From Gekko japonicus (Eukaryota): 64,000 nucleotides of DNA. The stretch is taken from assembly GCF_001447785.1 (NCBI RefSeq), contig NW_015165831.1, forward strand, positions 1,364,064-1,428,063. Direction: 5' to 3'. The notes under the pieces are model-generated. The model was not told the origin of the DNA, made no database searches, and was given only the letters and a program-made list of their open reading frames with translations. Positions 4,026 through 64,000 of this stretch are shown here, piece by piece; position 1 is the first letter of the stretch; each line of letters opens with the position of its first letter. A program made the position numbers and the translations under genes.

Positions 4026-4064
<39 letters not shown>

Positions 4065-21473: not shown

Positions 21474-21794
21474 TTTTAGTGCCTTTAAAAATAAAAAAAC
21501 CCAAACCCACTTGTCTTTAGGGTAGGAGGAGAAGAGAAGGAGTGGTTTGATGATGATGATAACAAGTACTGTCTTTGGAAAGGTGGGTTGGAGCTGGGTG
21601 GGAGCAGGTGGGACGAAGAAAACTATAGAAACCTTATGCACAAGGAAAAAGCCGACTCAAAATCAGCTTCCAGAAAAAGATTGGGATAAAAGTGGTCTCA
21701 AAAAATTGGGGGGAGGGGGGGAACGATAAAAAAAGAAGCAAAAACTAAAGGCACAAAAATGCATGCAGAAACTGGGGTAAACCAAAGCACTATA

Positions 21795-22068
21795 GGGAAC
21801 CCTCACTGTTCCCTGGAAGGCCAGATACTGAAGCTGATGCTCAGATACTTTGGCCACCAAATGAGAAGGCAGCACTCACTGGAGAAGACCCTGATGCTGG
21901 GAAAGACTGAAGCTAAAAGAAGAAGGGGACGTCAAAGGATGAGATGGTTGGACAGTGTCATAGATGCAATGTACATGAAGTTGAGCAAATTACGGTGGAC
22001 AGAAGGGTGGTCCCAAGGAGTTGTGAAGAGTCAAGAGTTGACTGTGTAACTGAACAACAACAACAACA
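21795..22068 (+). mobile_element. BovB/RTE LINE 3' fragment
   Basis: Peptide CSLEGQILKLMLRYFGHQMRRQHSLEKTLMLGKTEAKRRRGRQRMRWLDSV; (CAA)n tail. Confidence 0.9.
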
Positions 22069-24579: not shown

Positions 24580-24933
24580 TACCACCGTAAAGGCCTCTAC
24601 GAAGCGGAGCAAGGCGCGGTTGCTAAGGCGACACTACCGTTTCCGCCGATTGGTCATTCTGACAAAAGAAGGCGGGACTAGGTCGGCAGAGGCCGCGTCC
24701 GGAAGAAGCGTTTCATGCAAGAGAGGCGAACCGGAAGGTGAAGCGAGAGGCTGTGAGTGGGCGATGGAGGAGTCAATTACGAGGTTTGTTGTCAGGGGGT
24801 CTGTTGTCAAGCGCCCGCTCGCTGCCGATCGAGTGGAGCTTGGCGGCGGCAGTTGTCAACGCTGAGGGCGGTGGAGCCAGGCAGGGAGGCAGGCAGCCCT
24901 CCCGGTAGATATTGGCTGTCCTGCCGCTGGAGG
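24580..24933 (+). promoter_or_regulatory. KATNB1 CpG promoter and probable non-coding exon 1 (donor G|GTGAGT at 24933/24934)
   Basis: CpG island with X-box GTTGCTAAGGCGAC (24619-24632), reverse CCAAT (gattgg), GC box ggcggga and two CCGGAAG ETS sites; next acceptor tttcag| at 26746. Confidence 0.75.
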
Positions 24934-26981
24934 GTGAGTGGCTAGAGGCTGAGGCTAGAGAAGAAGCACACTCCAGCATGGCGGGGGCGCAGAAGGCACA
25001 GTGTGGCCTTGGTCACTGCCTGGTCCGCCTCCCTTTCCCCTCAGTGAGCGGGAGGAGGCGCTTAGTGAAGCCTTTGGGCCGCCTCCCCCTTGCCTCTGCC
25101 CGTTTCAAAGCTTATAGTTGAGTTCCTTGCTAGGACGCCCTTGTAGCGCTGGCAGTAATAACAGTCATAATAATACCAATAATAGTAACATTGTTAGAGA
25201 GTAACCTCCTTTATTGCTTTCTCAAATCAACGAGGTCACTCATATAACTGCTAATTAGAACAGCTGTTTCTAATAGAATATTTGGAAGTACAGAATAATT
25301 GCTGCAAGGTAGTTGCCTGCCCACACTGCCACTTATTATTATTGCTATATAGACTGTATTATAATAGGAGATATATCTCAGTGGTACAGCATCTGCTTTG
25401 CACGCAGGTAGGTATCGGGTTCAGTTCCTGGCACCTTCATTTTAAAGGGATCAGGTAGTGTGACCCTGGAGAGCTCTGGAAATCAGAATAGAGAACCCTG
25501 ACCTTGATCGATCAAAGGGCCTGACTTGGTAGAAGGCAGCTTCGTGTTTTATTTGCGTAGGGCTCTGCACTGTGTGTGTATTATTTGTACTGTGAATATC
25601 ATTTGTATGGGTGTGCCAATTCAGGTTTAAAAGTGCTTTACATGCATCAATTTGTGGTAGCCCTGTTAGGCTGGTCAGTATTGTTCTTCCAGGATTAAAG
25701 TTGAGAAGATGGTTTAGCTAGGGCCATGAAGTAACAGGGTATGATTTGGACTTCCTGGGTCACAGTTCATCCTGTTTGGTTGAGGCCGATAGAGATGGGG
25801 CTACTAGACTCCCTCCTAGAACAGGCTTCATGTGCCTCTCCTCAATCCTAGGATTTTTAAGAGAGGGAATGTTACCTGACACTGATGCTCCCACTGGTGG
25901 GAAGTTGCACCTCTATTCTTTGGTATGTGATGTTGTACTTAGATTAATGTGCAGTTGCGGTTGAATGCCAGATGTTCTTTCTCCATTAGACTAGGATCTG
26001 GGAGATCCAGGTTCAAATCTACTCTCTGATATCAAGCTTACTAGCTGACTCTGGGCTAGTCCTGGCCTAATTTCCTTCACAGGGTTGTCATGACGATAAC
26101 CGGGAGAAGAGAGAACTGTGTACGACTTCCATGAGCCCCTTAGAGGAAGGGGTGGCCAATAGACATAGACATTGTTTTAGAAATGAAGTGTTCATTGATT
26201 TAGCTAGTGTACATTAAAGAAAACATCTATAGTAATGACTGCAGCAACTTTATTTTTCATCATATTTAAAATGTGTTTTTAAATCGCTCATTAGTATGCT
26301 GCGTCTGTGGTAACCACCTTGTGAGAAACTAGGCACACAGTAGATTTCTTCTAGTATTTGTTAATCAGGTTTATGTCAATGATATATGTCTTCAGAGAAA
26401 ACTAGTTTGGTCCTGAAAGATTTGGGAACTGGTATCATTTTGTGCTCCATTGCCTGGCTATGCACCACTACCTGTAGGTGATGGTTTTCTTGGATTATGA
26501 GCTGTCTACCATTTCTGAGAAGTGTGTTAAGCATAATGTTCTGAAAAATAATATTTTAGTGCTTTAAGGACATTCACACACATACTCCTGTAAATAGGTG
26601 ATGGTATGTATTGTGTTGTGCTCCAGGAAATGGCTGTTCAGATATGTGGACAAATGAGTAACCTCATTAAGCTCTTTAAAGTTGTTTGTTTGCTTTTACC
26701 ATGTTTTGCTGGAGTAATTGATGTGATTCTATCTACTGTCTTTCAGGTTAATTGCTTCCCAGGACCTGGCTCACTTAATGGAAGAAACAGGCCTCTGGAT
26801 CTAGGAGGAGATGGTATAGCAATAACAATAATTGTTCTAAGGAACATTTTGTTGACTTGACTGCTGCAGGGCAGTTCACAAACTGGAGCTTCATACCTGT
26901 GGGGTTTTGCCCCATACACGCTGATGAAAACACAGCCTTTGGGCAGAAAAAGCTGGTTCTCTTGAGTGGTGTCAGACCCCC

Positions 26982-29900
26982 ATGATGGCAGCTGCAGTCG
27001 TCACCAAGACAGCTTGGAAGCTGCGTAAGTGAAATTCTCTCTTTGCTAGCTAGACCTTTACAATGTTAGCAGCTCCACTTTGGAGCATATTAATTCCATC
27101 TTGGTTCCTCCCCCTGGGCCTTGCTACTGTATTTTCTTTTCCTTCTTTTCTTCTCTTAGCCTGTCTTCTTTTCTGGGGAGGCTTGTTCATGGGGCATAGG
27201 TCTTAATGCTGCTAACTTTTGCTTTCAGACTTGGGGAGAGAAGTGCCAAGGGCAAATTTTCTGCACCGTAGTATAAGTTTAGTGTATTGATGTGCTTTGC
27301 GGGGAGGAATGATGGCTGCGGCTTATACAGAAAGATCCCAAACTATCTTGAGGCGTGTGTCAACCCGAGGTTTCAAGGCTAACAGTGAACAGCTGCCTTA
27401 ACAGGTGGTGAACAAATTTCTGCTTAGCTGAGACTGCTTAAAGATAGCTTATTGTTTGTCTAGTTCTGGCATATCATTGTATACAGTTGGTGCTGTCATT
27501 TTTGCACTTCTTTCCTCTATTGTCTAGCTTTGGGTATTAAATCTAATTCCATACCCCTGTGCAATTCTTTATCATCAAGGGAGATACCAAAAATATGCTT
27601 CTCTGCATAGGGGATGTGGGGGGACACACGCACACAATAAGTGACAATTAAAGGAAGTTTAAGAACAGTTTGTTCAAAATTTCCCACTCCTGTGGGGAGA
27701 AGCCCTGCAAGTAAAGAAAGTTATTGCCATTGGAGAAGAAGAGATGAGCTAATGCTACACATGTGGATGCCTCAGTGCAGCCCCAGACTAGGAAATGCTA
27801 AGCTGGCAGCCTGTATTGTTGAGCTTCTTCATCTGCTAACTTTAGAGGTATCCAGTACTTCTTTAAGAGTAGAATAGGAGGAGAGAACTCTGGATAGACA
27901 AGTGCTGTCATTTAACCTACATACAAAAGATAAAGGGCTCCATTTAGACCAGTATCCTGTTTCACACAGTGGCGAACTGGTTGCCCTAGAGGGCCAACAA
28001 ACAGCACATAGAACCCAAGGCCATCCCCCAATATTGTCTCCTAGCACTGGGCTTCAGAGGTTTACTCCTTCTGAATATGGAGGGCGCTTTTACTTGCCAT
28101 GGCTAGTAGCCATATCAAATGTATTGCTGTGAAGGCCATCCTAAACAAGGTGCCCTAGTATGTGTATCCAGAAGCAGTTGTTGAAACTTCCCAGGTAGGT
28201 GGCAAACTAGGTCTGCTCTGTATAGTTATTAAGAGCAGTGCTCTTCTGCTGAGTATGTATAGCTGTACTGTTTAATTGTTCTGACAGTTGGAAACAACAG
28301 CATTTAGTACTGGGGGAGACCTCCAAGTGAAAAGGAGGAAGCAGCCAATCAGGAGGATGTGGAAGGCAAGTGAACTCGTGTCCGGCAAACATTTATTGGA
28401 AAAGAAATTTCATTTTGAGGCTGGAGCTCATTTGCAGAAGCCAAGGGATGGTGTTGCTCAGGTTGTGGTATTATTAGTTTGCAGGTTGGCAAAACCTGCA
28501 GATTCTGAGCTGAGCAGTTGGGCTTCTGGCCTGAACGCCTATCTTGTTCCAGCTTATGCACCTGCAGCAGGGTGGCATAGGGCTTCCTGTCTTTCTCTTT
28601 AAAAAAAAAACCAAACTCTTATTTAAAATGCCGCAGTGTGCATAAAACATGCAACTAAAATAACTTTTCTCTACTGCTTTGTCATTAAATGTGTGCTTAA
28701 GTATATTGTTGTATGTGGGGTGTGGGATGGTAATAAGACTGATAATGGAAAGTACTCAGCCTTTACATTTGCTTTGTCCTGCAGAGGAAATTACAGCTCA
28801 CAGTAGCAATGTTTCTTCACTGGTGCTTGGAAAAAATTCGGGCCGGCTGCTGGCAACTGGTGGAGATGATTGTCGGGTTAACATCTGGTCAGTTAACAAG
28901 CCCAACTGTATTATGGTAAGAATTGGCTAAATCTCCTTTGGCTTGCAGAAAAGTGGGCCAGGAAGTAATAGCTTTGCCAGGGAGAAAACTAGCTTTTTAA
29001 AGCACTGGAGTTCAACAAGGGGAAAAAATCCTCTCTGTGTTACCCGGGGAGGTGGGGGGGGACGGGACAGTGTGGTTGTAGAAAGGAAGAAAGAAAGAAT
29101 TCAAAAACAATTAGGGATGCTTTTTCCCACCAGTAAATTGTAACAATAGGTTAGCCACCAATTAATGCTGTCTTCACTATATCTAGGTTTGACTTAAATG
29201 GATTAAAAAGAGGCCTCATCCAGAAGAACCTGGAGCTTATCCATTACCACCCGTACTCAGTACTCCCCCCACACACCGTGCACCATCTTAAGTGTCCATA
29301 GATGGTCTTATTACCTTTCCCCAGCAGAATTTACCACTTGTGAGTCCTGTGCAAAGTGATTTAGGCTTGGATGGATTTCTTTGGCCTTGGCATATATTTT
29401 CTTCCAGCCTGTTCTTCAAGGGGGTGAGAAGAAATTCTGATGAATTCCTGATATCATCAAGACAGGAGGTTAGTTAGCACCGACCATGGTAGGATTCAAA
29501 TCCAGTTTCCTCTTCTTGTAGATCTTAAGATTCTTTTTCACCCCATCCCTGTTTTTTGACCCAGGCTGGCCTAAGCTGTTAGATAGTATATATTGGTCAT
29601 CAGTAGTGCAGAACTTTTCTGGCCCTGCTAGTTGACTTCCTGATGGCACCTGGGTTTCGGCCACAGTGTGACACAGTGTTGGACTGGATGGGCCATTGTC
29701 CTGATCCAACATGGCTTCTCTTATGTTCTTGTGTTAACTTCCTGGACCCCTTTTTCTTTTCTGCTAATTGTCAGAGGGCAGGTAAGCCAATCTAGAAGCT
29801 TCTCCTGTAGCATAGGAGTTGATTTGCTGTGGCTACAGTACTGCTTCAGTAACAGATGAAGGAACCATCTGGGCAAAGCCAGTTTCCAGTTAAAGAGGCA

Positions 29901-32900
29901 TTAAGTGAAAAGGAGTCTCTGCAATGGGAACTGGTTGACATTTGGGAGGGGCCATGGATCAGTAGAAGAGCGTCTGTTTGGCATGCAAAAAGTCACAGGT
30001 TCAATTCCTGGCATCTCCTATTAAAAGAGTCAGGAAGCAGGTGATGTGAGAGATTGTTGCCTGAGACCCTGGCGAGCTGCTTCCAGTCAGAGTAGACAAT
30101 ACTGACCGTGATGGACCAGAGGTCTGACTGAATATAAGGCAGTTTCATATGTTCATCTGGGAAGGTTGTTCCTTCCCATACAGATGTTGCTTGGCTTCCG
30201 GAAGGGTGACCAAAGACAACTGCATTTTCTAGTGAAAAAGGTCAAGATGGGAAGCTGTGTTAGTCTGTCTGTAGCAGCAGAAAAGAGCAAGAGTCCAGGA
30301 GCACCTTAAAGACTAACAAAATTTGTGGCAGGGGATGAACTTTTGTGAGTCACGGCTCACTTCTTCAGATATCTGAAAAAGTGAGCAGTGATTTACGAAA
30401 CCCCCCCCCCTGCCACAAATTTTGTTAGTCTTTAAAGTGCTGCTGGACTCTTGATCTTTTCTACAGCTAGTGAAAAAGGCTTGTACATTTAAATGCTCAA
30501 ACCGTGGCATTTAGTGAACATGAAGGCTTGCGGGGGAGGGCGGGTTAAAAATACCATAATAATAATAATAATAATAATAATGAGGTTTGGAGGTCAATAA
30601 GAGTTTCTTGAACAAGAGTGGGGTACATTGCTGGGCTAGCCACAAAATGGAGAACACCAGGATTGCCAAAGTGCTTTAATGGTGACCGTATTTCCTATAA
30701 TGTAGTCCAGTAATATACGTTGGGAGTCAGCAGACTTTCATCTGGACTGTCATAGGGCAGGCTAGTTGTTTCTTTGATCTGGATACACTGATGAGGTGTG
30801 AAATGCATCTTCCACTTCTTAAGAAGACTCTTCCCTTTTGTTAAACTCTTCACAATTAGGACTTAACAACTTTTGGTGAATTTTCTGAACTTACAACAAA
30901 CAGATTGTATTTTTCTATGAAACTCATTGAATATTGTCATATGTATTGCACTGTTAATTAGAAAATTATATAAAAACTATGAAATACATTTGTAAGTAAT
31001 TATCATTAGTTAGTCTGTCATGGTTTAATCCTATTTGATATAGAAGTTTCCGTGATTCTCTCTTTGTTTGGTTGCAGCCATAACTGACTGGTTTGTAGAG
31101 GTCTGGCTGCTAATCTTTGAGAACAGAAGGTGGGTAGGGGGTACTTTGCAAGACAGATTTTGCGTGCATATTATTGGGCAAATACATAAGCACCTTTTGC
31201 ACAGGGTTATCATTTTAAGAACAAGATAGCATTAACCTGAAAATGAAGTTCTAGCTCTAACTCTTAAGCCTACTTACACTGTAGGTTAGAGACTGATCAT
31301 TCCCATACATTTAAATATTGGTTTCCTTGCTAGAGTGATAAATTTTAGCAGTAAGGTCATCTGTGTTTTCTCTTGTTATGTAAAGAGTTATGTAGCCAGA
31401 TCCACAGTTTCAAGTACACTGGAACTCTGAGGACAATCTTGCTTGGCATCTTACATGTCTCTGTCCCTTCCAGTAGTGCTATGGGCGTTGTTTGCAGTCT
31501 GTTTAGTGTATTTTCCTCCAAGGAGCTCAGAGCAGCATACATGATTTGTCTTTCCTCCGTTTTATCCTCACAACAGCTCTGCAAGGTAGATTAGGCTGAG
31601 AGAGCAAAAGGCGACTGGCCCACAGTCACCCAGTGAGCTTCATAGCTGAGTGGGGACTTGAACATGGATCTCCCAGAGCCTGCTCTGACCAGTGTATCAC
31701 TCTAGCATTCTGCTGCTGTAAAAAACTTTGTTCTCTATCAGGTAGAGACTGTAGAAGATAATTTTCCAAAATTTTTCTTCCTTTCCAAGATGAAAAATAG
31801 TTTAAAAGCAAAAAGGCCACTGAATATTTATATCAGTTATTCCAGTTTTAATTAGATGTAGGTTAATTAAAAAAAGATCAGCCTCTGCAGAATAGTAATT
31901 TCAATTACTTAGCCTGAGCTTGTTTTTTGTGCAATAGGCAAAATTAAGCTGTCTGTATTCTAATAGCAGTTTAGTTCTTGGATCTTTTCTTAATCCACCA
32001 ATAGGAGGAACTCTGTTCCTCCTTTTACCCTGGAGGCTGGTGCACTGGTATCTTCTGGGGCTGTGAACATGGCGGTCATGTAACTTCCTTGTAACTCCCT
32101 ACCTTGACCTGCAGAAAGAAGTATAGTGATCACTCTCGGATCCTCAGAGCTGCTGCTGTGAGCTCTGGTTTGAGGTGGTTGCTACTCTTTATGTCTTGTC
32201 CAGAGTCTGACTGGGCACACAACTCCCGTGGAGAGCGTGAAGATCAGTACCAGTGAAGAGCTGATTGTTGCAGGGTCACAGTCAGGCTCCATTCGAATCT
32301 GGGATCTGGAAGCTGCCAAAAGTAAGTTCAGAGCCAAATTGTTTTGTGACTTCCAGTTTCTAGACTGCATTGCAACTATCTGGCTTTGTAAACAGCACTG
32401 ATTAGATTTTAAGAAATTGTGTGTGTAAACTTCACCCAGTTTGTATTAATTTCTAATTCTAATTTCATTTTAAACCATATTTTGAACTGACGTTTTAAAA
32501 TATCTGCCTGATCTTAATTTTTTAGAATGGATTTTTTTGGGGGGAGGGGGGGAATCAATGCTTGCTAGCTTTGTTGTCTGGTATGCACGCTATTCTGTGC
32601 TGAAACTCTTTAGCTAGATTATCTCAATATTTTCCTTCCTACCCAGTTATTCGTACTTTAATGGGTCACAAAGCAAACATCTGCAGCCTAGATTTCCATC
32701 CTTTTGGAGACTTTGTAGCTTCAGGCTCTATGGATACTAATGTTAAGGTAAGCTTGCACTGAGTATTTCTCTTTGGCAGCAGTTAGTTCCCTGTGGAATA
32801 TTTCTTCTGCAACACCTGCATATTGGTTTGTTATTGAGGGGTGCTGTTGATATTCTTGCTTGACACATCTGAAATACTGTTGCTAAATGCAGCCTCTGTA

Positions 32901-35900
32901 GCAAACTGGCAATTTATCCCTGGGTGTTTCAGATTTTTCTTCAGATTTCCCCCCAGTTGAATGATAGTTCCCATTATTGGTGGGTGGTGGAAGAAGCTGC
33001 TTATCATTGGACATAAAAAATGGAAAATACATACCGTAGCTTGTGAAACTCACTGTTCCCTGGACTTAGTATAATAACTAATCTAATGGAATTACATGAT
33101 TTAAAAAAAATCTTAGCTTTAGTTGGATCTTTTGAGAGATTTTCAGAGCACTTCCAATTTTGTAACTTTTCTTTTCTTCCCCCCCCCCTCTTGTGTAGCT
33201 TTGGGATGTTAGGAGAAAAGGCTGTGTCTTTAGGTACAAGGTAAGAGAAATTGTTCTGTCTAGGTCTCATGCAGGACTCTGCTAGGACACCTCTAAAATC
33301 TCCTGTGCCATTTGCTGTTATTACAAAAATGTACCTAGAAAAGTCTTTGAACCCAGGATAAGTATACATGCTTTGGCAGTGTCTCTGCGATTCCTTTGCA
33401 TGAATATCCAGCAATTCAGCCACCAAAGTCTGCAGCTGTACTATTTATGTAAGCGTCTACAAAGCTGTATTCTGCCCATTTCATATCTATTTACTTAAGT
33501 TGTCACTGTTTTCAAAGACTTCAGGTAGTTTACTAAATGTCTAGTGTCTTGTACATGTAACTTAACATAGTGAAACAAGATGACCTGTCCTGCTACACTA
33601 GAGTAAATGTGATATTGTTAATGTAGTATTGAAGTCAGAGAAACTCCACAATTAAGTCACAAGCTTTTTGTAAAAAAGCCAGTAAGAGACAACTAAAATC
33701 AAAATGAAGTAACAAATATATTTTACAAGGGGAAGCCTCGAAAATATTCTTTTCAAGATGATTCTCATTCCAAAAACTTCAAAAGGCAAAAAAGTTAATT
33801 GTACAGTTATTAGAACTAGTCTTACCTCTTGAGTAACCTTAAGCAGGCAAATCTTATGAGATACTTTTGTCTTTACGTACAGTGCATCCGCAATACACAG
33901 CATTTAAATAACGTTTTCGTGTCCAAAGCATTTCCCATAAGCTTTTTTGGCAACCCCTCATTTTTCAAAGTTCTTTGGATACAATGGATGACTTCTGTCT
34001 GCTGCTCTGACCCTTTCAGAAAGGGCGGGATGTAAAGGTGTTACTGTTAAAAGCAGTTCCATTATCAAGCTATGAAGAGAGAGGTTTAGTTTTCTTGTCA
34101 GCTAATAGCTCCCATTATTTCCCCAGAATTTAGACCTGGCAAAGAGAGGGGATAGCTGTATGTTACCCTGTTGCGGTGCTGACAGCCTGGTGCCATTATG
34201 GATTAGCAGATTTATTGTGCATCAGCTGGGTTGCCTTGACAGGCATAATCTGCCTTCATGTTGGGTACAAAAGATCCACAGACAGGCTGTCTGCTTGGGT
34301 CTTATTCTCTTCAATGTAGATGACCTGATTTTTGGGGGGGGGGGGGACGGCGGCAAGAGGTATGCTGCACAGCCAGTTGCCTCTTGAATCATGACAGCAT
34401 AGCAGCTACACTAAGAAAGGAAGAACGGTCCTGCTTCTGACCCCCATCCTGAAAGTGCCGTGCTGTTTCCAGGGAACGTACCGCATCCACTTGCTTTTAC
34501 AGGGTCACACGCAAGCAGTCCGTTGTCTCCGATTTAGCCCTGATGGGAAGTGGCTGGCATCCTCATCAGACGATCACACTGTGAAGGTAAGGGTACGGTG
34601 GTGTGGACTGTTTCATTCTCTGGCACACCTGTTCCTGGAGTGGCAATGTCAGTCACTCGTGTTTGCCTGCCTCCCTGCTTTTAATGTCTTATGTGAAGAA
34701 AGGTGCTCTTGTTCAGAAGGATGAGATACGGGGCTGGGCAGCCACACCCCACTCAAAGCATGGCTGTTCATTCTTCTCTCCAGCTCTGGGATCTGGCTGC
34801 CGGGAAGATCATGTGCGAGTTCACAGAACACACGGGCCCAGTAAATGTCGTCGAATTCCATCCCAACGAATACCTTTTGGCTTCTCGTAGCTCTGACAGG
34901 TAAGTGCTCATAGCTCTGACAGGGAAAACTAGGACAGTGGCTACACTGCAAGACAAGAGTGTGGTAAAAGCTTGTAATGCCATGTTTTAAACTTTCATAC
35001 TTTAGCTTCTAGGCTTTGAACTATTGTGATGGAGGAAGATGTCAAAAATATGAAAGCTTAGCTTTGACCTGGATAGCCCAGGCAAGCCTGATCTCATGAA
35101 ATCACGGAAGCTAATCAGGGCTGACCTTGGCAAGTACTTGGAAGGGAGGCCTCCAGGGAATACCAGGGCTCAGGACACAAAGGCAGGCAATATCAAGCCA
35201 CCTCTCTGAAAGTCCAAACCCCACTAGGGGTCACCATGACTTCCAGGCACACAAGCGCATGTGCGTATGCACACACACACACAAAGTGTGAAAGAATAGA
35301 ATATGGGGCTGGTTAGGGAGGGAGCATAATGCTTCTGTGGAATGCAGAAGTTCAGTTCTCAGATCCACTTTCTTGATAGTTTGCATACTTTTTCAAAAAC
35401 TTCTCTGTATAGTCCTGCCAGCCTTATTCTTGTTCAAGCATGTTCAAGCAAAAGACTTTGGCACAGATGTTCTGGCTCCTCAGTTAATCTTGGCAAAGTC
35501 ATGTTTCTTCTTTCCCTTTTTTGGCATCTGCAGGAGGTTTCACCTGTTTGGCTTGAGAGATGACTTTAAAATAGGCTCTCTCTTAATGTGATGAGAAATC
35601 TGCAACCAAGGAATCGGCCAGTTCATTTAGTTCAGAGGTGGGCAGACTTGGTGTTTCTGGGAGCATCATAACTTTTTACAAGAGCTTTTGGAGCTGCCAG
35701 TCACTTGGTGGGTGGAACCAGTCACAGAATGGCAGCTTGTCCAGAAATTACAGCGTTTTAGAGCTTGTCTGCCATGCTCGGTTGAGGAAGACTTTCCAGT
35801 GCTGTTTTCCGAAAGCATAACACCTCCACCCCCTCCCCAAATTGTAACTTGCTGCACAGGGGGAAAATATATAGTTACTTCTGTTTCCTCTAGAGCAGGC

Positions 35901-41900: not shown

Positions 41901-44900
41901 TGATAGCCACCCCTATGCCTCCCCTGCCTCCTATCTGGTTGGCTTCATTGCATATGCTGCAATCGCCTTGTATTTCCCTTTTGTGTCTCCATGTCCAGGC
42001 CATGAAGAACCAAAGCCTGACAGAAATTGTAGATGATGAGGCCATGTCTCAGATCCGAAAGGGCCACGAGACCATGTGCGTGGTCCTTACCAGCCGGCAC
42101 AAAAACCTGGATGCAGTGCGGGCCAAGTGGAGCACTGGAGACATCAAGGCAAGTTGGTCACTTTGGGGCCGGGGGGGGGGGGGGGGGGCGCCGTGTGCGC
42201 CACAAGAGGATCCGGGCACAGGTGTCTGTGACTCGGCAGCAGTTTGATTCCAAATTTCTTGCCTTGATGAGCTTTTGTGTGAGAAGGGGTGGTGAGCTCC
42301 AGCTCTGTATTCCAGAGCTACTCCTACTGTACTGCTGTGTACCCTCAGAGGCTTAGGTCCTTGTGAAACACCTGCCTCTAATTCTGGGCTGAAAACTCAG
42401 CACTGCATTGCATAGGCCGAAGCAGGATGAATGCCGGTCTTTTGCTTTGATTTCAGCCTGCTTTGGGAGGAGGTGTAGAGAGGTGGTGTGGTTGCTATTT
42501 CTATCCTTGTTTTCTGGCAGTCTATGCCTCAACCCCCATCCCCACCCCATCCTGAGCCAAGCGTCCCTTCCAAAACAAAACCTTTGCCCCTCCTTCTTTT
42601 CGTCAGTGGGGTGTGTGTCTGTCCTGGGAAGTATAACTCCCCTGCTTGTCACATTGGCAATGCCAAGGTAACCTGCTTGTTCTTCTGGTAGGAGGCAACC
42701 ATCTCTCCACCGGCTTCATTCCCAGTTCCAGTCCTGCCCATTGTGCACCGCCAAAGGATTCTGTAAGGGCAATGAACAGAGCAGGAGCTTCCATGGATTG
42801 TATTTTCCCTGCTTTCCCTTTCCCTGCATTAGCTAGTTAAGTTGGACAAAGGAGCCCAACCAAGCTGTGCATGTAGTGCCACTGACACACTCTGTAGCCA
42901 CTAGATGCATGACCTTAGAAGAAGAAGAGGTTGGATTTATACCCCGCCCTTCACTTGGAGTCTCAGAGCGGCTTACAAACTCCTTTCCCCTCCCCTCCCC
43001 ACAACAGGCACCCTGTGAGGTGGGTGGGGCTGAGAGAGCTCTGACACAAACTGCTCTTTTTCAAGGACAGCTGTGCCAGAGCTTATGGCTGACCCAAGGT
43101 CACATCAGCAGGTGCAAGTGGAGGAGTGGGGAATCAAACCCGGTTCTCCCAGATTAGAGTCCGCGCACTTAACCACTACACCAAACTTACAAGTGGCTGC
43201 TAAGAACAACAAGAGCAGCTATGCTGGATCAGACCAGCGGCCTGTCTAGTCCAGCAGAATAAGGCTAAGAGGAGTGGAAGGGATGCACTTGCTGCATCCT
43301 TGGAAGATGCTCTTGGAATTGAGGGCAAAGCCAGTGTGGAGGGTTGATCATGCCCCCAAAAGTGTCATTTGCCTTCTTTCTGAGGATCAAATGCCCTGGG
43401 AATCCCAAGCAGGTCTCCTGGGCCCATTTTAACTCAGCGTCCCTTACTGATCTGCAAGAGCTTGCTATCCCACCAAGTTCACAAGCAGGAAGTCGTCTAG
43501 CTCCAGAGCCATGCAGCTCCTGTCCCCAGCAATCATGTACTTTGCCAGATGTCCAGGTGCCTCTGCAGTCTGAAGAAACATTCTTCCTTGAGACCTGTGG
43601 GGCTGCAGTCTGGCCCTTGGTGCATTCTGGCACCTGCTAGTCATAGTGCAGGTTTTTAAAAAGTTAGTTGGTATTTTGGTTTGCAGCCCGTTGCTGCTGT
43701 AAGTTTCTCTGTGAAGTTTTTGGTCAATACTAATGGTCGAGGTACAGATCTTCTCTAAGCTGAATGCCTTCCTGTTTGAGAGGAGCAGGCAAGTTAACGT
43801 TTTCTCTTCGTGGTTCTTGGGTTTTTTGCTTGGTAACTGGTTCTGCTCCCTCTTCATAGAACCACTGAGCAGCAGGGTCAGTAGATGGAGCTGAAGCCTT
43901 TGGGACATTCTGCATCTTGAGGACCATAACAATGACAAGCCCTACTCTAATCCTTCTCCTGCTTCTGTTACCTTTTTCCTCAGACTTCCATGGACTCTGC
44001 TGTGGATATCAATGACCTTTCCGTTGTTGTTGATCTCCTGAACATCATCAACCAGAAGGCGTGAGTCCCAGTATGCTTGTCTTCTACAAGGAGAAGGGGT
44101 TGGCCAGTTGAACTGTTGTGGCATCTAAGCATTAAGGTCCTAAAATGCAGTCACTGCCTTCATGTGCCACTTTATCATGACCCATGTGCTTGTGGGGGGA
44201 GAGGGGAATTGTTCGCGGTGTGCCCTCTGGTATGCAGTTTTACTCAGTTGGCATATCACAGGCATGAAGCCCTTGGCCAACATGACCCAGTTGATCTCAA
44301 AAAGCTCTCGGCAGCCTCTAGAGTTGGGAGGTGGTAGAAGGTCCTGAGGGGCTTGGGCAAGTCTTAATGTGCGCACCCAGAGAACATGTGCACACCCACA
44401 GAGCATGTAAGTCGTTGCCTGGAATTGCAGCATCATTTGGATCCCACATGTGACTTCCCATGGAGAAAAATTGCCTCCAGTCAATCCATGCAGTGCTTTC
44501 TGCCTTGAACTTGCAGGTCCCCATTCTGTTCTTGAAGGGTTCTGAGGATTTAATGGGGGTGGGTGGAGTCTGGCAACTCTCTGGAACCTGCGTCTTTCCC
44601 CAGGTCTCTCTGGAAGCTCGACTTGTGCACTGTCGTCTTGCCCCAGATAGAGAAACTTCTCCAAAGCAAATATGAAAGGTGAGGCTCCAGGGCAGTACAA
44701 GTCCTAGAGGATTTAAAGGCACTTAACCTGGGGAGCAGGTGATTTTGTGGAGACCAAAGTTCTCTCTGGGAGCTAGCACTTTTGTGACTTGTTGCTTGCA
44801 ATTCAGTCATGGTTCTGAGACCGGGCAGCTGCTGCCAGCATTGATTCCAGCAACAGTGTGGGAATTGCCCAACTAGATGGTGGCAGGGGCAGAAGCCTGT

Positions 44901-47489
44901 AAGTTCTGGACTTAGGAGAGCTTTATTCCAAATGTGCCTGCTTGGTCTGTGGGTATTGTGCAGAAGGGCAATGCATGTCTAAGGGGAGAGGCTTCTTCTT
45001 GCTTGACAGGGCCACCTTGCAGTGTCATTTCACTTCCATGTTGGAAAAATCCCATACCCTTTAGTTAAATGTCTTTTGAAAGCTCAAGCCTGGGGAATTG
45101 GGGATCGGTGGGCTTCCAGAGCTAAATTAAGCACTGAGATGAATCAGTCTTAATAGCGTATTGCTTGTGAATTGTTTCTGCAAGACAGTGGAGCAGAGAG
45201 AAATTTCCTAACAATTTTAAATTCTCAACTTTCTTCTTGTCCTGTTGTTAGGGTTCAAGAGCTAAGATTTTCATTTATTGCAACTGGTGCAAAGCTTTGG
45301 TGTGCTTTGATTGTCGGCGTGCTTCAAAGGATGCCTCCTTTCTTTCTTTTACCTTCAAAGGCATCTCTGTACTGAGGTGTGTGCGTGTGTGGCTGCCAGC
45401 ACATTTCTGCCCATTATGCAGCATGTCATTCCACAGGGTCCCCAACACAAAGGTGGTAACTCTATTCATGTACTGCTGCAGTAGAGCAGCAGTGGCAAAA
45501 CTGGAATTCAGCCCATAGAGATGGGAGGCGTTAAGCAGCACTTTTGGTATGGAGGTGATTCAGACATCGGCCCATCATTGTGTGGTTACTGCCAGCAGAG
45601 GGAGCTCTATGCTGAGATTTATTGGTCCTCTACCTTGACTGTGCTCGTTTCCTTCCCATCCCTGTACTGGCCCCTTTTTGCTGGACTTGCCCTTAATGGC
45701 GGCCTGATCAGGGGGATCTGAGTGATGCTGTCCCTACAGTTTACTTGCAGATCAGGGACATAGCATCACTGGGCTAATTTGTGCCATCTGAGCTTTGCAA
45801 AGAGCTGAAACAAGCGGGCAGCTACAATTTATCGACTTCATTTTTACCCCATCTTGCCCCCCACTGGGGACTCAAAGTGGTTTACATAGTTCCCCCTCCT
45901 CCATTTTATCCTCACAGTGATGATCCTGTGAAGCAGGTTAGGGTGAGATTGGGTGACTGGTCCAAGGTCACCCAGTGAGCTTCCATGGCCGAGTGAGGGT
46001 TTATAGAATCATAGAGTTGGAAGGGGCCATGCAGACCATCTAGTCCAGCCCCTGCTCAGTGCAGGATCAGCCTAGAGCATCTCTGACGAGTGTTCGTCCA
46101 ACTGCTGCTTGTGCGGAGGAGCTCACCACCACCTCCCTAGGCAGACAATTCCACTGCTAAACTACTCTTACTGTAAAAAAATAAATAATCCTAATATCCA
46201 GCCAGTACCTTTCTGCTTGTAATTTGAACCCATTACTGCAAGCCGTATCCTCTGCTGCCGACAGGAACAACTGCCTGCATCTCCCAGATCCAGTCCAACC
46301 CTAACCACTGCACCACAATGATGATCCTAGTGTGTTACCCTTTAAAAAAAAAAATCAGAAGTTGGACAAAAGGCAAGTCCTGTTACAGCCAGTGACCATA
46401 TCGGTGAGAAATGCCATTTCTCTCTCCAGGTAGTCTGAAAGAATGTTGTTCTGCACCTTGGCTTGAACAGTTAGACTTGGCAAGCCTTACTGGATGTGCT
46501 TTGGAACATGAGCCACCTCCTTCCTTTTATCTGGTGCTTTTTCAGGCTGTTTTTGAAAGCGTTTCCATTTTTGCTGATGGTCTGTGTTGTCTTGATAGCT
46601 ACGTCCAGACAGGTTGCACTTCACTGAAGTTGATCCTGCAGCGCTTCTTGCCCCTGATCACGGACATTCTCGCTGCACCACCGTCAGTGGGGGTAGACAT
46701 TTCCCGAGAGGAGAGGTAATATTATCTTAAGAGGCTGGATGGCATTGCACTCGCTTCCCTCATTTGCAGGCCTTTGGGTGAAGCTTCTGGGTCTCTACAG
46801 GTGTAATATGACAGTCTAGCCCAAGGCCCTTCCCTTTTAGGACTTACCAGCTTGATTCCCAGTGCTGATGCATCTTGCCAGTCTCTCTTTTGCCCTGTAG
46901 AGTCCTGAAGTCCTCACCTGTGTGTTAGGACATTTGTAGGCCTAGCTGCCGCTAGCTCTGTATGGGGCTGGGGGAAAATGCACACATTCTATTGTATCCA
47001 CTGAGGGCCAAGTGGAAAACTCCTTTGGGCTCCTTTCAGCTAGATTGACTGATCCAGAATATTTTCCTGAGAGAGACACCCACACAGTCTGGTTCATATG
47101 CTTGGAGGGTAAATCCTTTGCCTTCTTCTTGTGCTTGCTCTCTCCATAGCACTTAGTGGGGGATTTTTATTTGAGATATTTGTGTAGTGCTTCTCTGAGG
47201 AGCACTCAAAGTGCTGTTTGTTTAAAATACATTTAAACGCCTTTTGGATGGCAGCGTACCCTTGCAGCTAGCTAGCTACCTACTCCTATGTATTCCTTGG
47301 TTATGTTTCTACGACCTCACTGCAGAGCCATCTAGGAGGGACNNNNNNNNNNNNNNNNNNNNNNNNNNNNNNNNNNNNNNNNNNNNGCTGAAGAACATCA
47401 GCAACATCATCAAGAACAAATGTGGACTCAGTGGCCGCCATGGCAGTGCCTTCTGTGAGCTGCATCTCCTTATGGCTGTCCTTGAGTGA
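26982..47489 (+). CDS. KATNB1: Katanin p80 WD40 repeat-containing subunit B1, ~658 aa; join(26982..27024,28785..28915,32204..32321,32647..32747,33199..33240,34503..34586,34784..34899,36652..36723,37177..37327,38350..38537,38893..39023,39565..39615,40286..40362,40810..40929,41999..42148,43984..44060,44604..44678,46599..46715,<47387..47489)
   Basis: [49 protein letters not shown]... six WD40 repeats, [31 protein letters not shown], con80 domain [43 protein letters not shown]...LHLLMAVLE*. Phases consistent; one GC donor; start of last exon lies in the N gap. Confidence 0.95.
35062..35245 (+). mobile_element. 5S rRNA-headed SINE (SINE3)
   Basis: gcctgatctc...cggaagctaatcagggc...gtacttggaagggaggcctccagggaataccaggg is a degenerate 5S rRNA with A/IE/C boxes, followed by a non-5S body. 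Confidence 0.75.
36253..36522 (+). mobile_element. Squam3-like SINE
   Basis: Same head, body and (TCT)n tail as the copy at 12759. Confidence 0.85.
37379..37614. mobile_element. hAT (Tip100-like) non-autonomous element; related fragment at 24240-24412
   Basis: End tggcatcccta (TAGGGTTGCCA-type TIR); body ggagatttgggggtggag...gagtccgccctccaaagcatccattttc shared in reverse with 24240-24412. Confidence 0.55.
39900..40162 (+). mobile_element. Squam3-like SINE
   Basis: tagtggttaagtatgcggactctaatctgggagaaccgggtttgattcccc...(TCT)n. Confidence 0.85.
42917..43187 (-). mobile_element. Squam3-like SINE (inverted relative to the copy at 39900)
   Basis: Reverse complement of the same subfamily, (AGA)n at left end. 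Confidence 0.85.
47343..47386. other. Assembly gap (44 N) covering the acceptor and first ~30 nt of the last KATNB1 exon
   Basis: Run of N; the protein resumes at [11 protein letters not shown]. Confidence 0.95.
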
Positions 47490-47614
47490 CCTCTGCTGCC
47501 TCCTCTGCCTATGCAGATGCACCACACCAAGGACTAGTCTTCCCGACCACGACCTCCCATTTCAGCCAGCGTTGGGTCATTTTGTTTGGTGTCCAATCTG
47601 TACACTCCTTCAGT

Positions 47615-47620
47615 AATAAA
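47615..47620 (+). terminator. KATNB1 proximal polyadenylation signal AATAAA (distal ATTAAA at 48073-48078 followed by a GU-rich tract)
   Basis: Canonical hexamer ~125 nt after the stop codon. Confidence 0.55.
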
Positions 47621-50514
47621 TAATAAGGGGGTGCCCTAAGCGCTCTGCTCCATCATCAGTGCCTTAACAGGCTGGGTTGCAAAACAAGCTCCCATCTCCC
47701 TCCAACACAGCCCACCCTTCTTTGCATGCAGCAGCTGGGCAGCGTCCCTTGGTCCTGGTGACCCGAGTGCCTGGGACCACCGGCCCCTACCCTGCTTGTG
47801 AGCCCCCTTTCCTTTCCAGTCTTACTGTTGTCTCATGGGCTTTGTCATTCCAGTGAGGGAAAGGGTGGGCCAGACCTGTCTGATCAGTTTGTGCCAGTCA
47901 TGTAGCTACATTTGCCTCTTTGGGAAGTTCTTGGACTGGAGGAGCCGGGCAGGATCAGACGTGGGGCCAACGTGTCTGCTCCTCCTTGCTTTTTCTCCAC
48001 GGTGGAACCTTCAGTGCTGGAGAATGGGAGGGTGTTTCCTGTTCCATGAAACTGTAACTTATAATTAATTTTATTAAAACATTTGTAACTTTTATTTTGG
48101 AATGCTGTTATGAAGTGTTGTGTGTCCCTTTTCAAAGGGCAGCTTGGGATTTTTTTGTTGGGGTTGGACATTTGGGGGTTTTGTTCCAGCAAATCAGTTC
48201 ATTCTTGACAGGTGTCCTCTAGATTTCCATTGAGATATAATATGGGATCCGGGGGGAGGGGGGACCCTCAGATAGTGGCTGATACGGTTTATCTGTGGCT
48301 TCAATGTATCAGTCATTCAGTTCCAACAGGATGAGTATAACCATGGAAACTGCATAGGGGTGATGTCCCACATGTACTACTATCCTTGACTCGAGGTACC
48401 AGATCTTGGAAGAGGACTACCAGTGATGGATTCCTCTCTGTACACATCCTCCCCCCCTCACATATATCTAAATCTTGGCTAGCACCCTGTCCAAGTCCTG
48501 TTGGCATGAGATGCCCCCAACTCCCCAGTTTAACCTATCATGAGGCACCAGATTCTTAAAGGTGACTGACAATATGTTGATTAGGTTTAATTTCCATGTC
48601 TTCAGAGATGGAAATAAGGATGTCTTTGAGCCATGTTAAACATCCCAACAACTTGTTTAAAGCAGTGAGAGGAACATCTACTTTTGAGTACAACTTCAAA
48701 AGTGGTGCATGCATTTGGGTCTATATTGATTTACCATCAACAAAAGCTGTATTACACTGCAAGACTGACCAGTTCTACTTGAATATCTGTCGCAGGAATC
48801 CTACATTTCCAAAGAGAACCTGTGTATTTTTAAACTGTTACAGTAGACATTGGAGGGAGGTAGCAGCAGGGAAGCCGTAACTCCTTAAAGCTGTACTACT
48901 CAGAATGCTTAAGCCATCGGTGTTCCCAAGGGTTTGTAAAAGGAGATCATATGTAGTTGGGTTGGTTGTCTAATTTTAAGAATAGGTTATACTAGGGGCA
49001 CATATTAAAAATTGCATTTAACACCACCTTCATGTTGAATCTTTTACTCTGTCAACTAGTATGTTCCATCTTGCCTAGTCATAGCGTTCCTGTGGCCTCT
49101 TTGTTCTGAAGGTTTTTATACCCCACTTTGCTCTACCTCAAGGAGTCTCAACGGGGCTTACCATCACACTCCCTTCCTCTCTCCACAACAGACACCTAAG
49201 AGGTAGGTGGGGCTGAGAGAGTTCTGAGAGAACCCAGCAGCCTTCATATGGAGGAGTGGGGAAGCGAACCCGGTTCTCAAGATTAGATTCCATCACTCTT
49301 AACCAACTAAACTGTGCTGGGTCCTTGCTTAAACACTGAGTCCAATTAAGAGTTGTTAACTATTGTTTAGAATAGAGGGCAACATTAAATATGCCAACAA
49401 AAGTACCCAAGTGCTACGGAATTCTGGACGTAGAATTACACAATTCAAAATAACCTTATTTTCTCACTATGTAACCACTGATTGGTATGCTTCAATTCTA
49501 TAGCAAATACTGTTGACAGTCAGTTCAGGCTTGACTCTGGCCATGCAGCGGTCAACCCTGCCCAATGGAAGTGGACAGCAGAGGCAGAAAAACTGGGTTG
49601 ATGTTGGGTAAGCCCTGCGGGCTTCACATTTCTGTCATCTGTCACAGCCAAAGCAATGCTCTTCACTGACCGTGTTTCAGGTTGCTGTAGATGCAGAATT
49701 AAGTCACAGCCAGCTTTGCTGGGAAGCTGGCCGACTGCTTCTTTCAAACTAAGAAGGCACAGTCTGCAGCTGGTTAGCTGTGCCAAAGACATGAGCTGAC
49801 TCTAAGACCAGAAGTCACAGAAGAAGTGGTGGTTGTGCTGTATCTAAACAAGCCCAGATCTTTTGTCACAAATAACAAAGGTATAAGTAATTGCCTCTAC
49901 AAAATCACACCAGTATGTCAGATTCAGCATTATTTAATAAGGGGGGGAAGTATCCGTGAGAAGACCACATAAGAGCCCGGCTGGATCAGACCAATGGTCC
50001 ATCAAGTCCAGCATCCTGTCTCACACAGTGGCCAACCAGTTCCTCTGGACAGCCAACAGGGCATAGAGGCTGAGGCCTTCCCAATGTTGCTTCCTAGCTC
50101 TGGGATTCAGAGGCTTAGTGCCAGGAAGGCCTTCTTTCTTCAGGTACCTGCTGTATACAGAGATTACTGCTCATGCAGCTTTAATGAAGACCTCTACAGC
50201 TGTTTCTAGAATATGCAGCTCGTTGCAAGAATGTAAGAGTGAGGCTCGAGCCAAAAAGTAAGGCTGCTTTTGATCTCTCCTCCCCCAAATTATTGGGGAT
50301 ATTTCATTAAAGCACTCCTAAATCATGATTTTGTATATTTTTATGTTCTCTATTTTTTTATATGGTAAGCCACCTTGAACTCCATAAAGAAGAAAGGTGG
50401 CTAATAAAATGCTTTAAGCAAGTGAAATATTGCCATGTTCTTGCTTAATCCCATCACAGTTAACAGCTCTTCATGGAAGACAAACAAGTGGCCCTTTTGC
50501 CAAGTCTGTTTTAT

Positions 50515-52864: not shown

Positions 52865-52952
<88 letters not shown>

Positions 52953-53547
52953 TGTAAATAATGCTCTGTAGTTCCCAGTACAGTATACAGATAGTAATCA
53001 CTACCACCCTCTTCATTTGTTTCTTTTGCTGGCATAACTCTTTTAAAAGGCAAGAAGATGAAGGGGGAGAGATGCTAAAAACTACTAAATTTCTGCCTGC
53101 TATATAGTTACTATTAGAAAAGAGCAAGAGTCCAGTAGCACCTTAAAGACTAACAAAATATGTGAGGGAATGAGCTTCCATGAGTCACTGCTGTACCTGA
53201 AGAAGTGAGCAGTGACTCACGAAAGTTTTGTTAGTCTTTAAGGTGCTACTGGACTCTTGCTCTTTTCTATTCCTACAGACAGACTGACATGGTTATCCAT
53301 CTTGATAACGCTACCATGGAAAGGAATTCCTGGGCGTTAGAAAACTAGTGTTTCCCCCTTTCTTTCTCAGGTTCGTCTACGGCGTCCTCCAAACCAAGCT
53401 ACATCTGCCCAGTCCCATGCAAAGCCTTCCCCCCGCCCCAGTGACCCCTACCAGATAGGCCGCTCCTAAAGACAGCAGCCGTTGCATTCGTACGTCCAGC
53501 ACCCGTGCCCTCCGCAGCCCAACTCTCGCTACCGCCAGGGCCGCCAT
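50515..53547 (-). CDS. MRPL49: Mitochondrial ribosomal protein mL49, ~177 aa; complement join(53452..53547,51992..52157,50957..51081,50515..50661)
   Basis: Arg-rich targeting peptide [16 protein letters not shown]..., [57 protein letters not shown]...[12 protein letters not shown]|[10 protein letters not shown]...[18 protein letters not shown]; GT-AG introns; head-to-head with FAU. Confidence 0.96.
51404..51607. mobile_element. hAT-type MITE, family A copy 3
   Basis: tagtgttccctctaag...cagcttagaggg; near-TSD ctgcccac/gtgcccac. Confidence 0.8.
52867..52950. repeat. Compound (CT)n(CA)n microsatellite in MRPL49 intron 1
   Basis: Directly visible. Confidence 0.95.
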
Positions 53548-55708: not shown

Positions 55709-58528
<2,820 letters not shown>

Positions 58529-63953: not shown

Positions 63954-64000
63954 ATGGAAGCCGAAAGTTCGAGTCCCTCTTCCGACCCTTGCTGTGAGCT
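63954..64000 (+). CDS. ZNHIT2: Probable N-terminus of zinc finger HIT domain-containing protein 2 (runs off the window)
   Basis: Kozak ACGATGG, MEAESSSPSSDPCCEL... resembles the ME..GPCxxC start of ZNHIT2, which lies directly downstream of FAU on the same strand in mammals; only 15 codons visible. Confidence 0.45.
   Translation, partial: MEAESSSPSSDPCCE

What the first reader, a model, noticed from the sequence alone, without database searches (positions are those of the whole stretch)
24580..48080. Full intron-containing KATNB1 sits inside the 11q13-like block, at an apparent inversion breakpoint
Seen: gene order SNX15(+) SAC3D1(+) KATNB1(+) MRPL49(-) FAU(+) ZNHIT2?(+). Known (from memory): in human, KATNB1 is on 16q21 between DRC7 and KIFC3. 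Human 11q13 runs SNX15(+) SAC3D1(+) NAALADL1 CDCA5 ZFPL1 VPS51 TM7SF2 ZNHIT2(-) FAU(-) MRPL49(+). Inference: the MRPL49-FAU-ZNHIT2 block is inverted relative to human, and KATNB1, with all its introns and its own CpG promoter, occupies the junction without DRC7 or KIFC3. Since it has introns it is not a retrocopy. It is a DNA-level single-gene transposition, a lineage-specific duplicate or a retained ancient paralog.
Basis: partly seen in the sequence, partly recalled or inferred. Interest (0 to 1): 0.7.

Follow-up and report, generated by a model that had tools for sequence, protein, structure and literature searches.

The report
Katanin gene that moved in geckos
The only copy found in this gecko genome of KATNB1, a cell-division and cilia gene, is intact, spliced and sits among unrelated genes at the edge of a chromosome segment that is likely flipped; it likely moved there as a piece of DNA in an early gecko ancestor, a known but uncommon kind of gene move that would mark the gecko lineage.

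Summary
A complete KATNB1 (19 coding exons, 24.6-48.1 kb, +) lies between SAC3D1 and MRPL49. RNA confirms 12 of the 16 introns examined. It is the only copy found, and the gene tree places it among gecko orthologs, so it is not a duplicate or ancient paralog. Its intron positions match those of birds and mammals, so it is not a retrocopy. DRC7 and KIFC3 lie on other scaffolds with no KATNB1 remnant in 817 kb. KATNB1 shares a sequence record with SAC3D1 in 4 of 4 other geckos (consecutive IDs in Gekko kuhli). It does so in 0 of 19 other squamates, 0 of 7 marsupials and 0 of 1 bird. MRPL49 to NAALADL1 runs in reverse of the recalled human order. Serial IDs in three snakes and one lacertid suggest the reversal is gecko-derived; one RefSeq pair disagrees. 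Best reading: DNA-level relocation of one gene on the gecko stem, likely captured at the inversion break. The relocation is well supported (about 0.93); coupling to the inversion is inferred (about 0.5). This is a known kind of event, and my searches found no report of this case.

The parts
24581..25100 (+). KATNB1 CpG-island promoter and predicted non-coding exon 1 (predicted donor after 24933). Holds an X-box-like site (24619), a CCAAT box (24649), a GC box (24670) and two ETS-like sites (24699, 24731); motif patterns recalled.
   Evidence: the exon 1 splice joint was not confirmed by RNA
26985..47489 (+). KATNB1 coding region, 19 coding exons: 26985-27024, 28785-28915, 32204-32321, 32647-32747, 33199-33240, 34503-34586, 34784-34899, 36652-36723, 37177-37327, 38350-38537, 38893-39023, 39565-39615, 40286-40362, 40810-40929, 41999-42148 (GC donor), 43984-44060, 44604-44678, 46599-46715, last exon to 47489. 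About 657 aa: WD40 propeller plus con80 domain.
47343..47386 (.). 44-N run over the acceptor and start of the last exon; read as an assembly gap, because the public protein record deviates exactly here and RNA bridges it
47490..48090 (+). KATNB1 3' UTR; ATTAAA at 48073; RNA depth falls to near zero in the bin starting at 48025
18870..20767 (+). SAC3D1 coding region (left neighbour; AATAAA at 21490)
21500..24580 (.). Left junction zone: SINE/LINE fragments and about 1.6 kb of unique DNA, also present in DNA runs of two other organisms; no match to old-locus DNA
48090..50400 (.). Right junction zone between the converging 3' ends of KATNB1 and MRPL49; no terminal inverted repeat or target-site duplication pairing it with the left zone
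50515..53547 (-). MRPL49 coding region, first gene of the reversed block
55709..58528 (+). FAU coding region (named by eye from its translation)
63954..64000 (+). Start of the single-exon ZNHIT2 (419 aa, runs past the window end)
747..7950 (+). SNX15 exons (PX and MIT domains); gene ends not mapped

Best explanation
This is the genome's single found, intact and spliced KATNB1 ortholog, which likely left its old place beside KIFC3/DRC7 as a DNA fragment with its introns and promoter, and was likely patched into the SAC3D1-side break of an inversion on the gecko stem lineage. Shown: intact and expressed gene, orthology, ancestral intron positions, no copy found at the old site, and a shared record with SAC3D1 in geckos but not in other amniotes sampled. 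Inferred: that the move was between chromosomes; that the promoter came along (in the recalled mammalian order only 3' ends face this junction, so no local promoter was on offer); that the inversion is gecko-derived; and that insertion and inversion were one double-strand-break repair event, either cut-and-paste or copy then loss of the parent. Odds: relocation on the gecko stem about 0.93; coupling to the inversion about 0.55 of that.
For: Single copy: 16 of 41 matches of the full-length protein lie in this locus at 62-96% identity; the other 25 are WD40-only matches at 27-55% (68 of 279 candidates scored). The con80 family hits only this locus and C10589, where four KATNB1 queries gave no match better than E 0.11. 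Tree of 29 rows: the window groups with 6 other gecko rows, 100/99, end branch 0.016, inside squamates. Introns: 23 of 40 deletions of 12 aa or more in non-gecko KATNB1 isoforms or models have both ends within 2 aa of this gene's exon boundaries, against about 1.5% by chance; they include birds, marsupials and primates. Expression: 12 of the 16 introns in the laid stretch appear among the 15 joints shown. Old site: no tblastn match at E 0.1 in 817 kb around DRC7, KIFC3, CIAPIN1 and USB1. Mammals list KATNB1 between CCDC135 (DRC7) and KIFC3 (PMC13255800 table passage; PMC8227816 passages). Same record length for KATNB1 and SAC3D1 in Gekko kuhli, Paroedura, Heteronotia and Eublepharis. G. kuhli IDs run SAC3D1 ..923, KATNB1 ..924, MRPL49 ..925. 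Record lengths differ in 19 of 19 non-gecko squamates, 7 of 7 marsupials and 1 of 1 bird. SAC3D1 and MRPL49 are 10, 16, 20 and 40-41 serial IDs apart in Liasis, Crotalus horridus, Naja and Podarcis lilfordi. In Eublepharis the chicken-11 homolog is distal chromosome 16 (PMC10509250 passages), while KATNB1 is on a 255-Mb record.
Against: No sequence scar ties insertion and inversion: no shared flank, target-site duplication, terminal repeat or donor-site remnant. Two events on one long branch need not be one event. The far end of the reversed block joins a cystatin-like cluster and PAQR6-SMG5-TMEM79-GLMP, not SYVN1. SYVN1 is on another scaffold with other neighbours, so the region broke several times and may simply be fragile. 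Pantherophis RefSeq IDs for SAC3D1 and MRPL49 are consecutive, which could mean the adjacency predates geckos; RefSeq IDs are not positional in this genome's own records, and two other colubrids show gaps of 117-118 and 818. Cross-species synteny rests on record lengths and ID order, not on DNA. KATNB1-KIFC3 adjacency outside mammals was not tested. The KIFC3 scaffold ends about 21 kb past the gene and the fetched scaffolds contain N runs, so a remnant could be hidden. No single DNA contig spanned either whole flank.
Confidence: 0.52

Rival explanations
1. Same single-gene DNA relocation, but independent of the inversion: KATNB1 inserted before or after it at a site that breaks often.
For: The 11q13-like region is reshuffled at several points in this genome. 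No scar links the two events. PMC12820338 (passages) describes breakpoint regions that cluster in fragile sites and recur. Pantherophis IDs hint at an older SAC3D1-MRPL49 adjacency.
Against: The gene fills the junction with about 3 kb and 2.4 kb to spare, and 4 of 4 serial-ID assemblies outside geckos lack the adjacency. An independent insertion had many other intergenic gaps to land in.
Confidence: 0.33
2. A larger block moved, or two chromosomes met, and later inversions or losses pruned the block down to KATNB1 alone.
For: The donor region is also rearranged against the mammalian list: DRC7's 3' neighbours are an Ig-domain gene and the chemokines, and CIAPIN1's is FA2H. Geckos fused microchromosomes onto larger ones (PMC10081179 passages).
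Against: No other gene of the KIFC3 block was recognised in about 510 kb of the host scaffold (exon-candidate scan, by eye). DRC7, KIFC3, CIAPIN1, USB1, ZNF319 and TEPP remain on other scaffolds.
Confidence: 0.1
3. Lineage-specific duplicate or retained ancient paralog, with another KATNB1 elsewhere.
For: G. kuhli lists two near-identical SAC3D1-KATNB1-MRPL49 sets. Only 68 of 279 candidates were scored.
Against: Both G. kuhli sets are at the new-type locus. No second copy in this genome. The tree follows species relationships with no long branch.
Confidence: 0.03
4. Misassembly joined KATNB1 into this scaffold, or this position is ancestral and mammals are derived, or it is a retrocopy that regained introns.
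For: The assembly is fragmented (191,500 contigs) and no laid contig spans a whole flank.
Against: No N run lies in either flank. The same order appears in an independent 178-Mb G. kuhli record. All 27 non-gecko comparisons are unlinked. Intron positions match birds and mammals.
Confidence: 0.02

Closest known systems
Positionally relocated genes (individual gene translocations; PMC13689697, citing Han and Hahn 2012; Bhutkar et al. 2007 as cited in PMC12954441)
   Same: One ortholog on an unexpected chromosome, shared by a clade, parent copy absent, introns retained as expected for the DNA-based route. PMC13689697 gives about 0.6% of gene families per 100 My in bilaterians, about one gene per My.
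   Different: That study excludes vertebrates, and reports that ancestral translocation drops for genes above 10 kb; this gene spans about 23.5 kb today. It also sits at an apparent inversion junction.
Sauropsid single-gene relocations: IRF9, CARMIL3, PLEKHA4, TPPP2 (PMC12954441 passages)
   Same: Single vertebrate genes moved to non-syntenic positions in one reptile or bird clade.
   Different: Those left dot chromosomes. Here a gene entered a block whose bird MRPL49 records sit on tiny scaffolds (dot-chromosome identity recalled).
KATNB1 / katanin p80 (PF13925 con80 plus WD40; PDB 5LB7, 5NBT, 6GZC)
   Same: Same domains; 79-89% identity to non-gecko amniote orthologs and 95-96% to other geckos; same intron positions.
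   Different: Genomic address only, plus one Gekko-restricted Gly-to-Arg change in a WD40 repeat.
Retrogenes
   Same: A gene in a new place with its parent absent.
   Different: All ancestral introns are present.

Membership tests
KATNB1 ortholog | N-terminal WD40 propeller plus C-terminal con80 domain | tested here: met
   WD40 E 5.6e-57, Katanin_con80 E 1.5e-43; p80 structure 5lb7 E 7e-86
KATNB1 ortholog | Gene tree follows species tree | tested here: met
   7 gecko rows form one group, 100/99, inside squamates; 29 rows used, no amphibian, fish, turtle or crocodilian rows
KATNB1 ortholog | Intact frame and spliced transcript | tested here: met
DNA-based positionally relocated gene | Both flanks belong to a different syntenic block | tested here: met
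   ARL2, SNX15, SAC3D1 on the left; MRPL49 to NAALADL1 on the right
DNA-based positionally relocated gene | Parent site lacks the gene | tested here: met
   No match in 817 kb; limits: KIFC3 scaffold ends about 21 kb on, N runs present
DNA-based positionally relocated gene | Ancestral introns retained | tested here: met
   23 of 40 non-gecko deletions match exon boundaries at both ends
DNA-based positionally relocated gene | Outgroups keep the gene away from the new block | tested here: met
   27 of 27 non-gecko comparisons differ in record length; a proxy, not DNA
DNA-based positionally relocated gene | New site on a different chromosome from the old block | tested here: inconclusive
   Indirect only: 255-Mb record in Eublepharis against chicken-11 homology on chromosome 16; the KIFC3 record in other geckos was not looked up
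Retrogene | Loss of parental introns | tested here: not met
Transposon-captured (Pack-type) gene | Terminal inverted repeats and target-site duplication bracketing the gene | tested here: inconclusive
   None found, but the event is old enough for such marks to have decayed
Insertion at an inversion breakpoint | Neighbouring block reversed against the ancestral order | tested here: inconclusive
   Eight genes in reverse of the recalled human order; 4 of 4 serial-ID assemblies lack SAC3D1-MRPL49 adjacency, 1 RefSeq pair is consecutive
Insertion at an inversion breakpoint | Insertion and inversion arose in one event | not testable with these tools
   Needs early-branching gecko genomes; no scar seen

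The most novel reading that the evidence does not exclude
One multi-break repair event on the gecko stem cut a long, 20-exon housekeeping gene with its promoter out of one microchromosome and stitched it into an inversion break on another, while also rearranging the donor site beside DRC7: a fixed germline case of chromoplexy-like gene capture between microchromosomes, linked to the period in which geckos lost their microchromosomes.
Probability: 0.2. Interest if true: 0.6.

Novelty: new member of a known kind. Interest (0 to 1): 0.38.

Why it matters
It gives a clean presence/absence character for gecko phylogeny. Scoring pygopodoids and dibamids would date it and test whether it marks all Gekkota. 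It is a well-bounded vertebrate example of a long, intron-rich single-copy gene moving by a DNA route; one survey puts such moves at about one gene per million years and finds them rarer for long genes. If insertion and inversion prove simultaneous, it shows breakpoint repair capturing a whole gene from another chromosome. Practically, synteny-based orthology tools would miss or mislabel gecko KATNB1, and the public protein record for this species is wrong at the gap. No change in function is indicated.

Tried and rejected
C7917 was fetched as a KIFC3 candidate and rejected: it holds a KIFC2-like gene and FOXH1-like genes (names by eye). C10589, the second con80 locus, is not KATNB1; one exon candidate looks like KATNBL1 (recalled). 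A ZNF319 look-up meant to give the old block's chromosome in other geckos failed: the sequence is not in the collection. The DNA lay at 85% likeness was swamped by repeats and showed no contig spanning a whole flank; it is neither support nor refutation. The run search listed no holder on record as RNA; expression evidence comes from laid reads only. RefSeq accession order was rejected as a positional guide because it fails in this genome's own records. Dropped from the record-length count: Euleptes, Sphenodon and Anolis carolinensis (no record length), Sphaerodactylus (no KATNB1 row), Podarcis muralis (KATNB1 row pools two species), and Pogona, Phrynosoma, Anolis sagrei, Tiliqua, Elgaria, Thamnophis, Naja, Ahaetulla, Phrynocephalus, Protobothrops, Ophiophagus and turtles (length for one side only); eutherians were not tabulated. 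No terminal repeats, target-site duplication or homology between flanks and old-locus DNA. Paper searches found no report of this relocation: KATNB1+synteny, katnb1+gecko (41), KATNB1/KIFC3/DRC7/CCDC135/CNGB1 (42), SAC3D1/MRPL49/ZNHIT2/SNX15/synteny (43), KATNB1+KIFC3+chicken (66). The library lacks most subscription papers and supplements were not searched. Searches for chemokine-locus synteny (67) and human KATNB1 splice variants (85) gave nothing usable. The Sphaerodactylus synteny table is an image and was not seen. The Sceloporus preprint passages did not link record sizes to chicken chromosomes. Earlier-findings look-ups returned nothing. No folding or complex prediction was run; neither bears on the question.
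Full report
Observation. The window is G000:C6121:1364064-1428063 of a 2.49-Gb genome in 191,500 contigs. Eighteen KATNB1 coding exons from 26985 to 46715 join into an open frame with canonical splice sites and one GC donor. The last exon begins inside a 44-N run and ends at 47489. The model matches P0003, named Gekko japonicus KATNB1 by its source, at 644 of 651 positions, differing only at the N run. Pfam gives WD40 repeats and the con80 domain, and the PDB gives katanin p80. A CpG island with X-box-like, CCAAT, GC and ETS-like motifs lies at 24.6-25.1 kb (motif patterns recalled). RNA runs show 12 of the 16 introns in 32.0-51.2 kb among the 15 joints displayed, with 159 more joints not shown. 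They include the joint into the last exon, bridged in frame by my reading, and depth ends near 48.0-48.1 kb. The first three introns were not confirmed.

Copy number and orthology. A search with one exon gave one match (5 of 5 candidates scored). The full-length search gave 41 matches: 16 in this locus at 62-96% identity and 25 WD40-only matches elsewhere at 27-55% (68 of 279 candidates scored). The con80 family hit this locus and C10589 (8 of 8 scored); KATNB1 queries found nothing there better than E 0.11. In a maximum-likelihood tree of 29 amniote rows chosen from the hits, the window's protein (represented by P0003) groups with six other gecko rows at 100/99, inside squamates, with an end branch of 0.016. 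Intron positions are ancestral: 23 of 40 deletions of at least 12 aa in non-gecko isoforms or models end within 2 aa of this gene's exon boundaries on both sides, where chance gives about 1.5%. The 17 misses are mostly imperfect gene models or lie in the variable linker, by my reading.

The old address. A cattle table lists ADGRG3, CCDC135, KATNB1, KIFC3, CNGB1, TEPP in one window (PMC13255800, one passage), and a pig table lists the same genes within 0.3 Mb (PMC8227816, passages). In this genome DRC7 is on C7371, preceded by ADGRG genes and a ZP-domain gene and followed by an Ig-domain gene, chemokines, PLLP and ARL2BP. KIFC3 is on C6831, with only repeats in the 21 kb between its 3' end and the scaffold end. 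CIAPIN1 is followed by FA2H on C5039, and USB1, ZNF319, TEPP and CNGB1 are on C9008. Names not backed by Pfam were recognised by eye. No KATNB1 remnant was found by tblastn or blastn in 84 loci totalling 817 kb. The donor region is thus itself rearranged against the mammalian list; whether that is gecko-specific was not tested.

Other species. No relative's DNA was available, so I used record lengths and accession order as proxies. KATNB1 and SAC3D1 share a record length in 4 of 4 other geckos with both values: G. kuhli 178,238,668; Paroedura 205,925,973; Heteronotia 285,831,653; Eublepharis 255,159,772. G. kuhli's serial IDs run SAC3D1, KATNB1, MRPL49 consecutively. Heteronotia and Paroedura RefSeq numbers fall in the same order, but RefSeq numbers are not reliably positional. 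KATNB1's record differs from that of SAC3D1 or MRPL49 in 19 of 19 non-gecko squamates: Lerista, Sceloporus, Pantherophis, Vipera, Candoia, Rhineura, Podarcis raffonei, P. lilfordi, Lacerta, Zootoca, Liasis, Crotalus tigris, C. horridus, Pseudonaja, Hemicordylus, Erythrolamprus, Pituophis, Python and Notechis. The last two are small scaffolds and weigh little. It also differs in 7 of 7 marsupials and in Rhea. Dropped rows are listed under Tried and rejected. The move therefore maps after geckos split from other squamates and before gekkonids split from eublepharids. Pygopodoids and dibamids were not sampled. PMC10509250 (passages) places chicken-11 homology on distal Eublepharis chromosome 16, whereas KATNB1 there is on a 255-Mb record, so the move was likely between chromosomes (inference; that the old block belongs to chicken 11 is recalled).

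The inversion. Beyond ZNHIT2 the scaffold continues TM7SF2(-), an LRR gene, VPS51(-), ZFPL1(-), CDCA5(+), an unnamed gene and NAALADL1(+). This is the reverse of the recalled human order. SAC3D1 and MRPL49 are 10, 16, 20 and 40-41 serial IDs apart in Liasis, C. horridus, Naja and P. lilfordi, so they are not neighbours there; some of those IDs are isoforms. Against this, the Pantherophis RefSeq pair is consecutive, while Ahaetulla and Pituophis pairs are not. The far end does not rejoin SYVN1. It meets cystatin-like genes and then PAQR6, SMG5, TMEM79 and GLMP, and SYVN1 lies on C6729 between CAPN1 and a PRPF39-like gene, RBM14, CCS, CCDC87 and SPTBN2. The block has broken more than once, which weakens any claim that one break explains the insertion.

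Junctions. Neither flank contains an N run. Unique DNA at about 22.1-23.7 kb and 48.1-49.0 kb has no match in 1.5 Mb of fetched loci, and the two flanks share nothing beyond 13-20-nt chance matches. No terminal repeats or target-site duplication bracket the gene. Contigs from one same-species DNA run and two other organisms cover the left flank in pieces but none spans it.

Mechanism. A DNA route is required by the introns. The fragment likely carried the promoter, since in the recalled mammalian order only 3' ends face this junction. I commit to capture at the SAC3D1-side inversion break during double-strand-break repair, because the gene fills the junction with about 3 kb and 2.4 kb to spare and both changes map to the same branch. 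Independent insertion at a fragile site is the main rival. Cut-and-paste and copy-then-loss cannot be told apart. PMC12820338 (abstract and passages) reports that sequences from ancestral microchromosomes occupy the nuclear interior, which would favour contact between donor and target; this is context, not a test.

Comparison and novelty. Individual gene translocation is a known class. PMC13689697 (abstract, passages and section 24) estimates about one gene per million years in invertebrate bilaterians, describes the DNA-based route and finds lower ancestral rates above 10 kb. PMC12954441 (passages) lists four sauropsid cases. PMC10081179 (passages) covers microchromosome fusion in geckos. Five searches found no report of this case; supplements and most subscription papers were not covered, and the public annotations of these geckos already hold the gene at this place. 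Verdict: real, well supported, a new member of a known kind, of modest interest (0.38).

Noticed in passing
window 34784-34899 (KATNB1 exon, protein position about 206): A Gly-to-Arg change in a WD40 repeat (LASGSSD to LASRSSD) occurs in 4 of 135 sequences, namely this one, two G. kuhli records and one unnamed G. kuhli-like record; the other 131 have Gly.
   Followed up: partly
Gekko kuhli records P0007/P0004, P0123/P0267, P0293: The SAC3D1-KATNB1-MRPL49 set appears twice on one record, in opposite order, about 110 IDs apart, with one residue difference per protein pair. Recent inverted duplication or uncollapsed haplotype.
   Followed up: partly
window 47343-47386: The public protein record P0003 has a few wrong residues where the N run hides the start of the last exon; other geckos and the RNA agree on the normal sequence.
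   Followed up: yes
L079 (about 19.7 kb upstream of the window): A 325-aa single-frame RBM4-like ORF with two RRMs next to ARL2, while RBM4/RBM14-like genes also lie on C6729; possibly a retrogene or a second inserted gene.
   Followed up: no
L077 (about 28-30 kb downstream of the window): A 640-aa single-exon LRR ORF without an evident TIR domain between TM7SF2 and VPS51; resembles a soluble TLR5 (recalled, untested).
   Followed up: no
G000:C7371:181000-305000: A ZP-domain gene sits between ADGRG3 and DRC7; an Ig V-type receptor with a transmembrane segment and ITIM-like motifs sits between DRC7 and the chemokines. Two DRC7-region exon candidates occur twice in tandem, perhaps assembly artefacts.
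   Followed up: partly
L109-L130 (about 160-376 kb downstream of the window): A cluster of cystatin- or cathelicidin-like genes, then PAQR6, SMG5, TMEM79 and GLMP (human 1q22-type, recalled), directly follows NAALADL1.
   Followed up: partly
G000:C6729:584000-824000: SYVN1 lies between CAPN1 and a PRPF39-like gene, followed by RBM14, CCS, CCDC87, RBM4 and SPTBN2 (names by eye).
   Followed up: partly
G000:C7917:55000-94000: At least two FOXH1-like copies follow a KIFC2-like gene (names by eye).
   Followed up: no
window 30272-30469: A 99-nt inverted repeat pair with no spacer, 85% complementary, in a high-copy repeat; MITE-like.
   Followed up: no
G000:C6831:1-21000: Only retroelement fragments, including L1-like ORF1 frames and an env-like piece, lie past the 3' end of KIFC3.
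   Followed up: no
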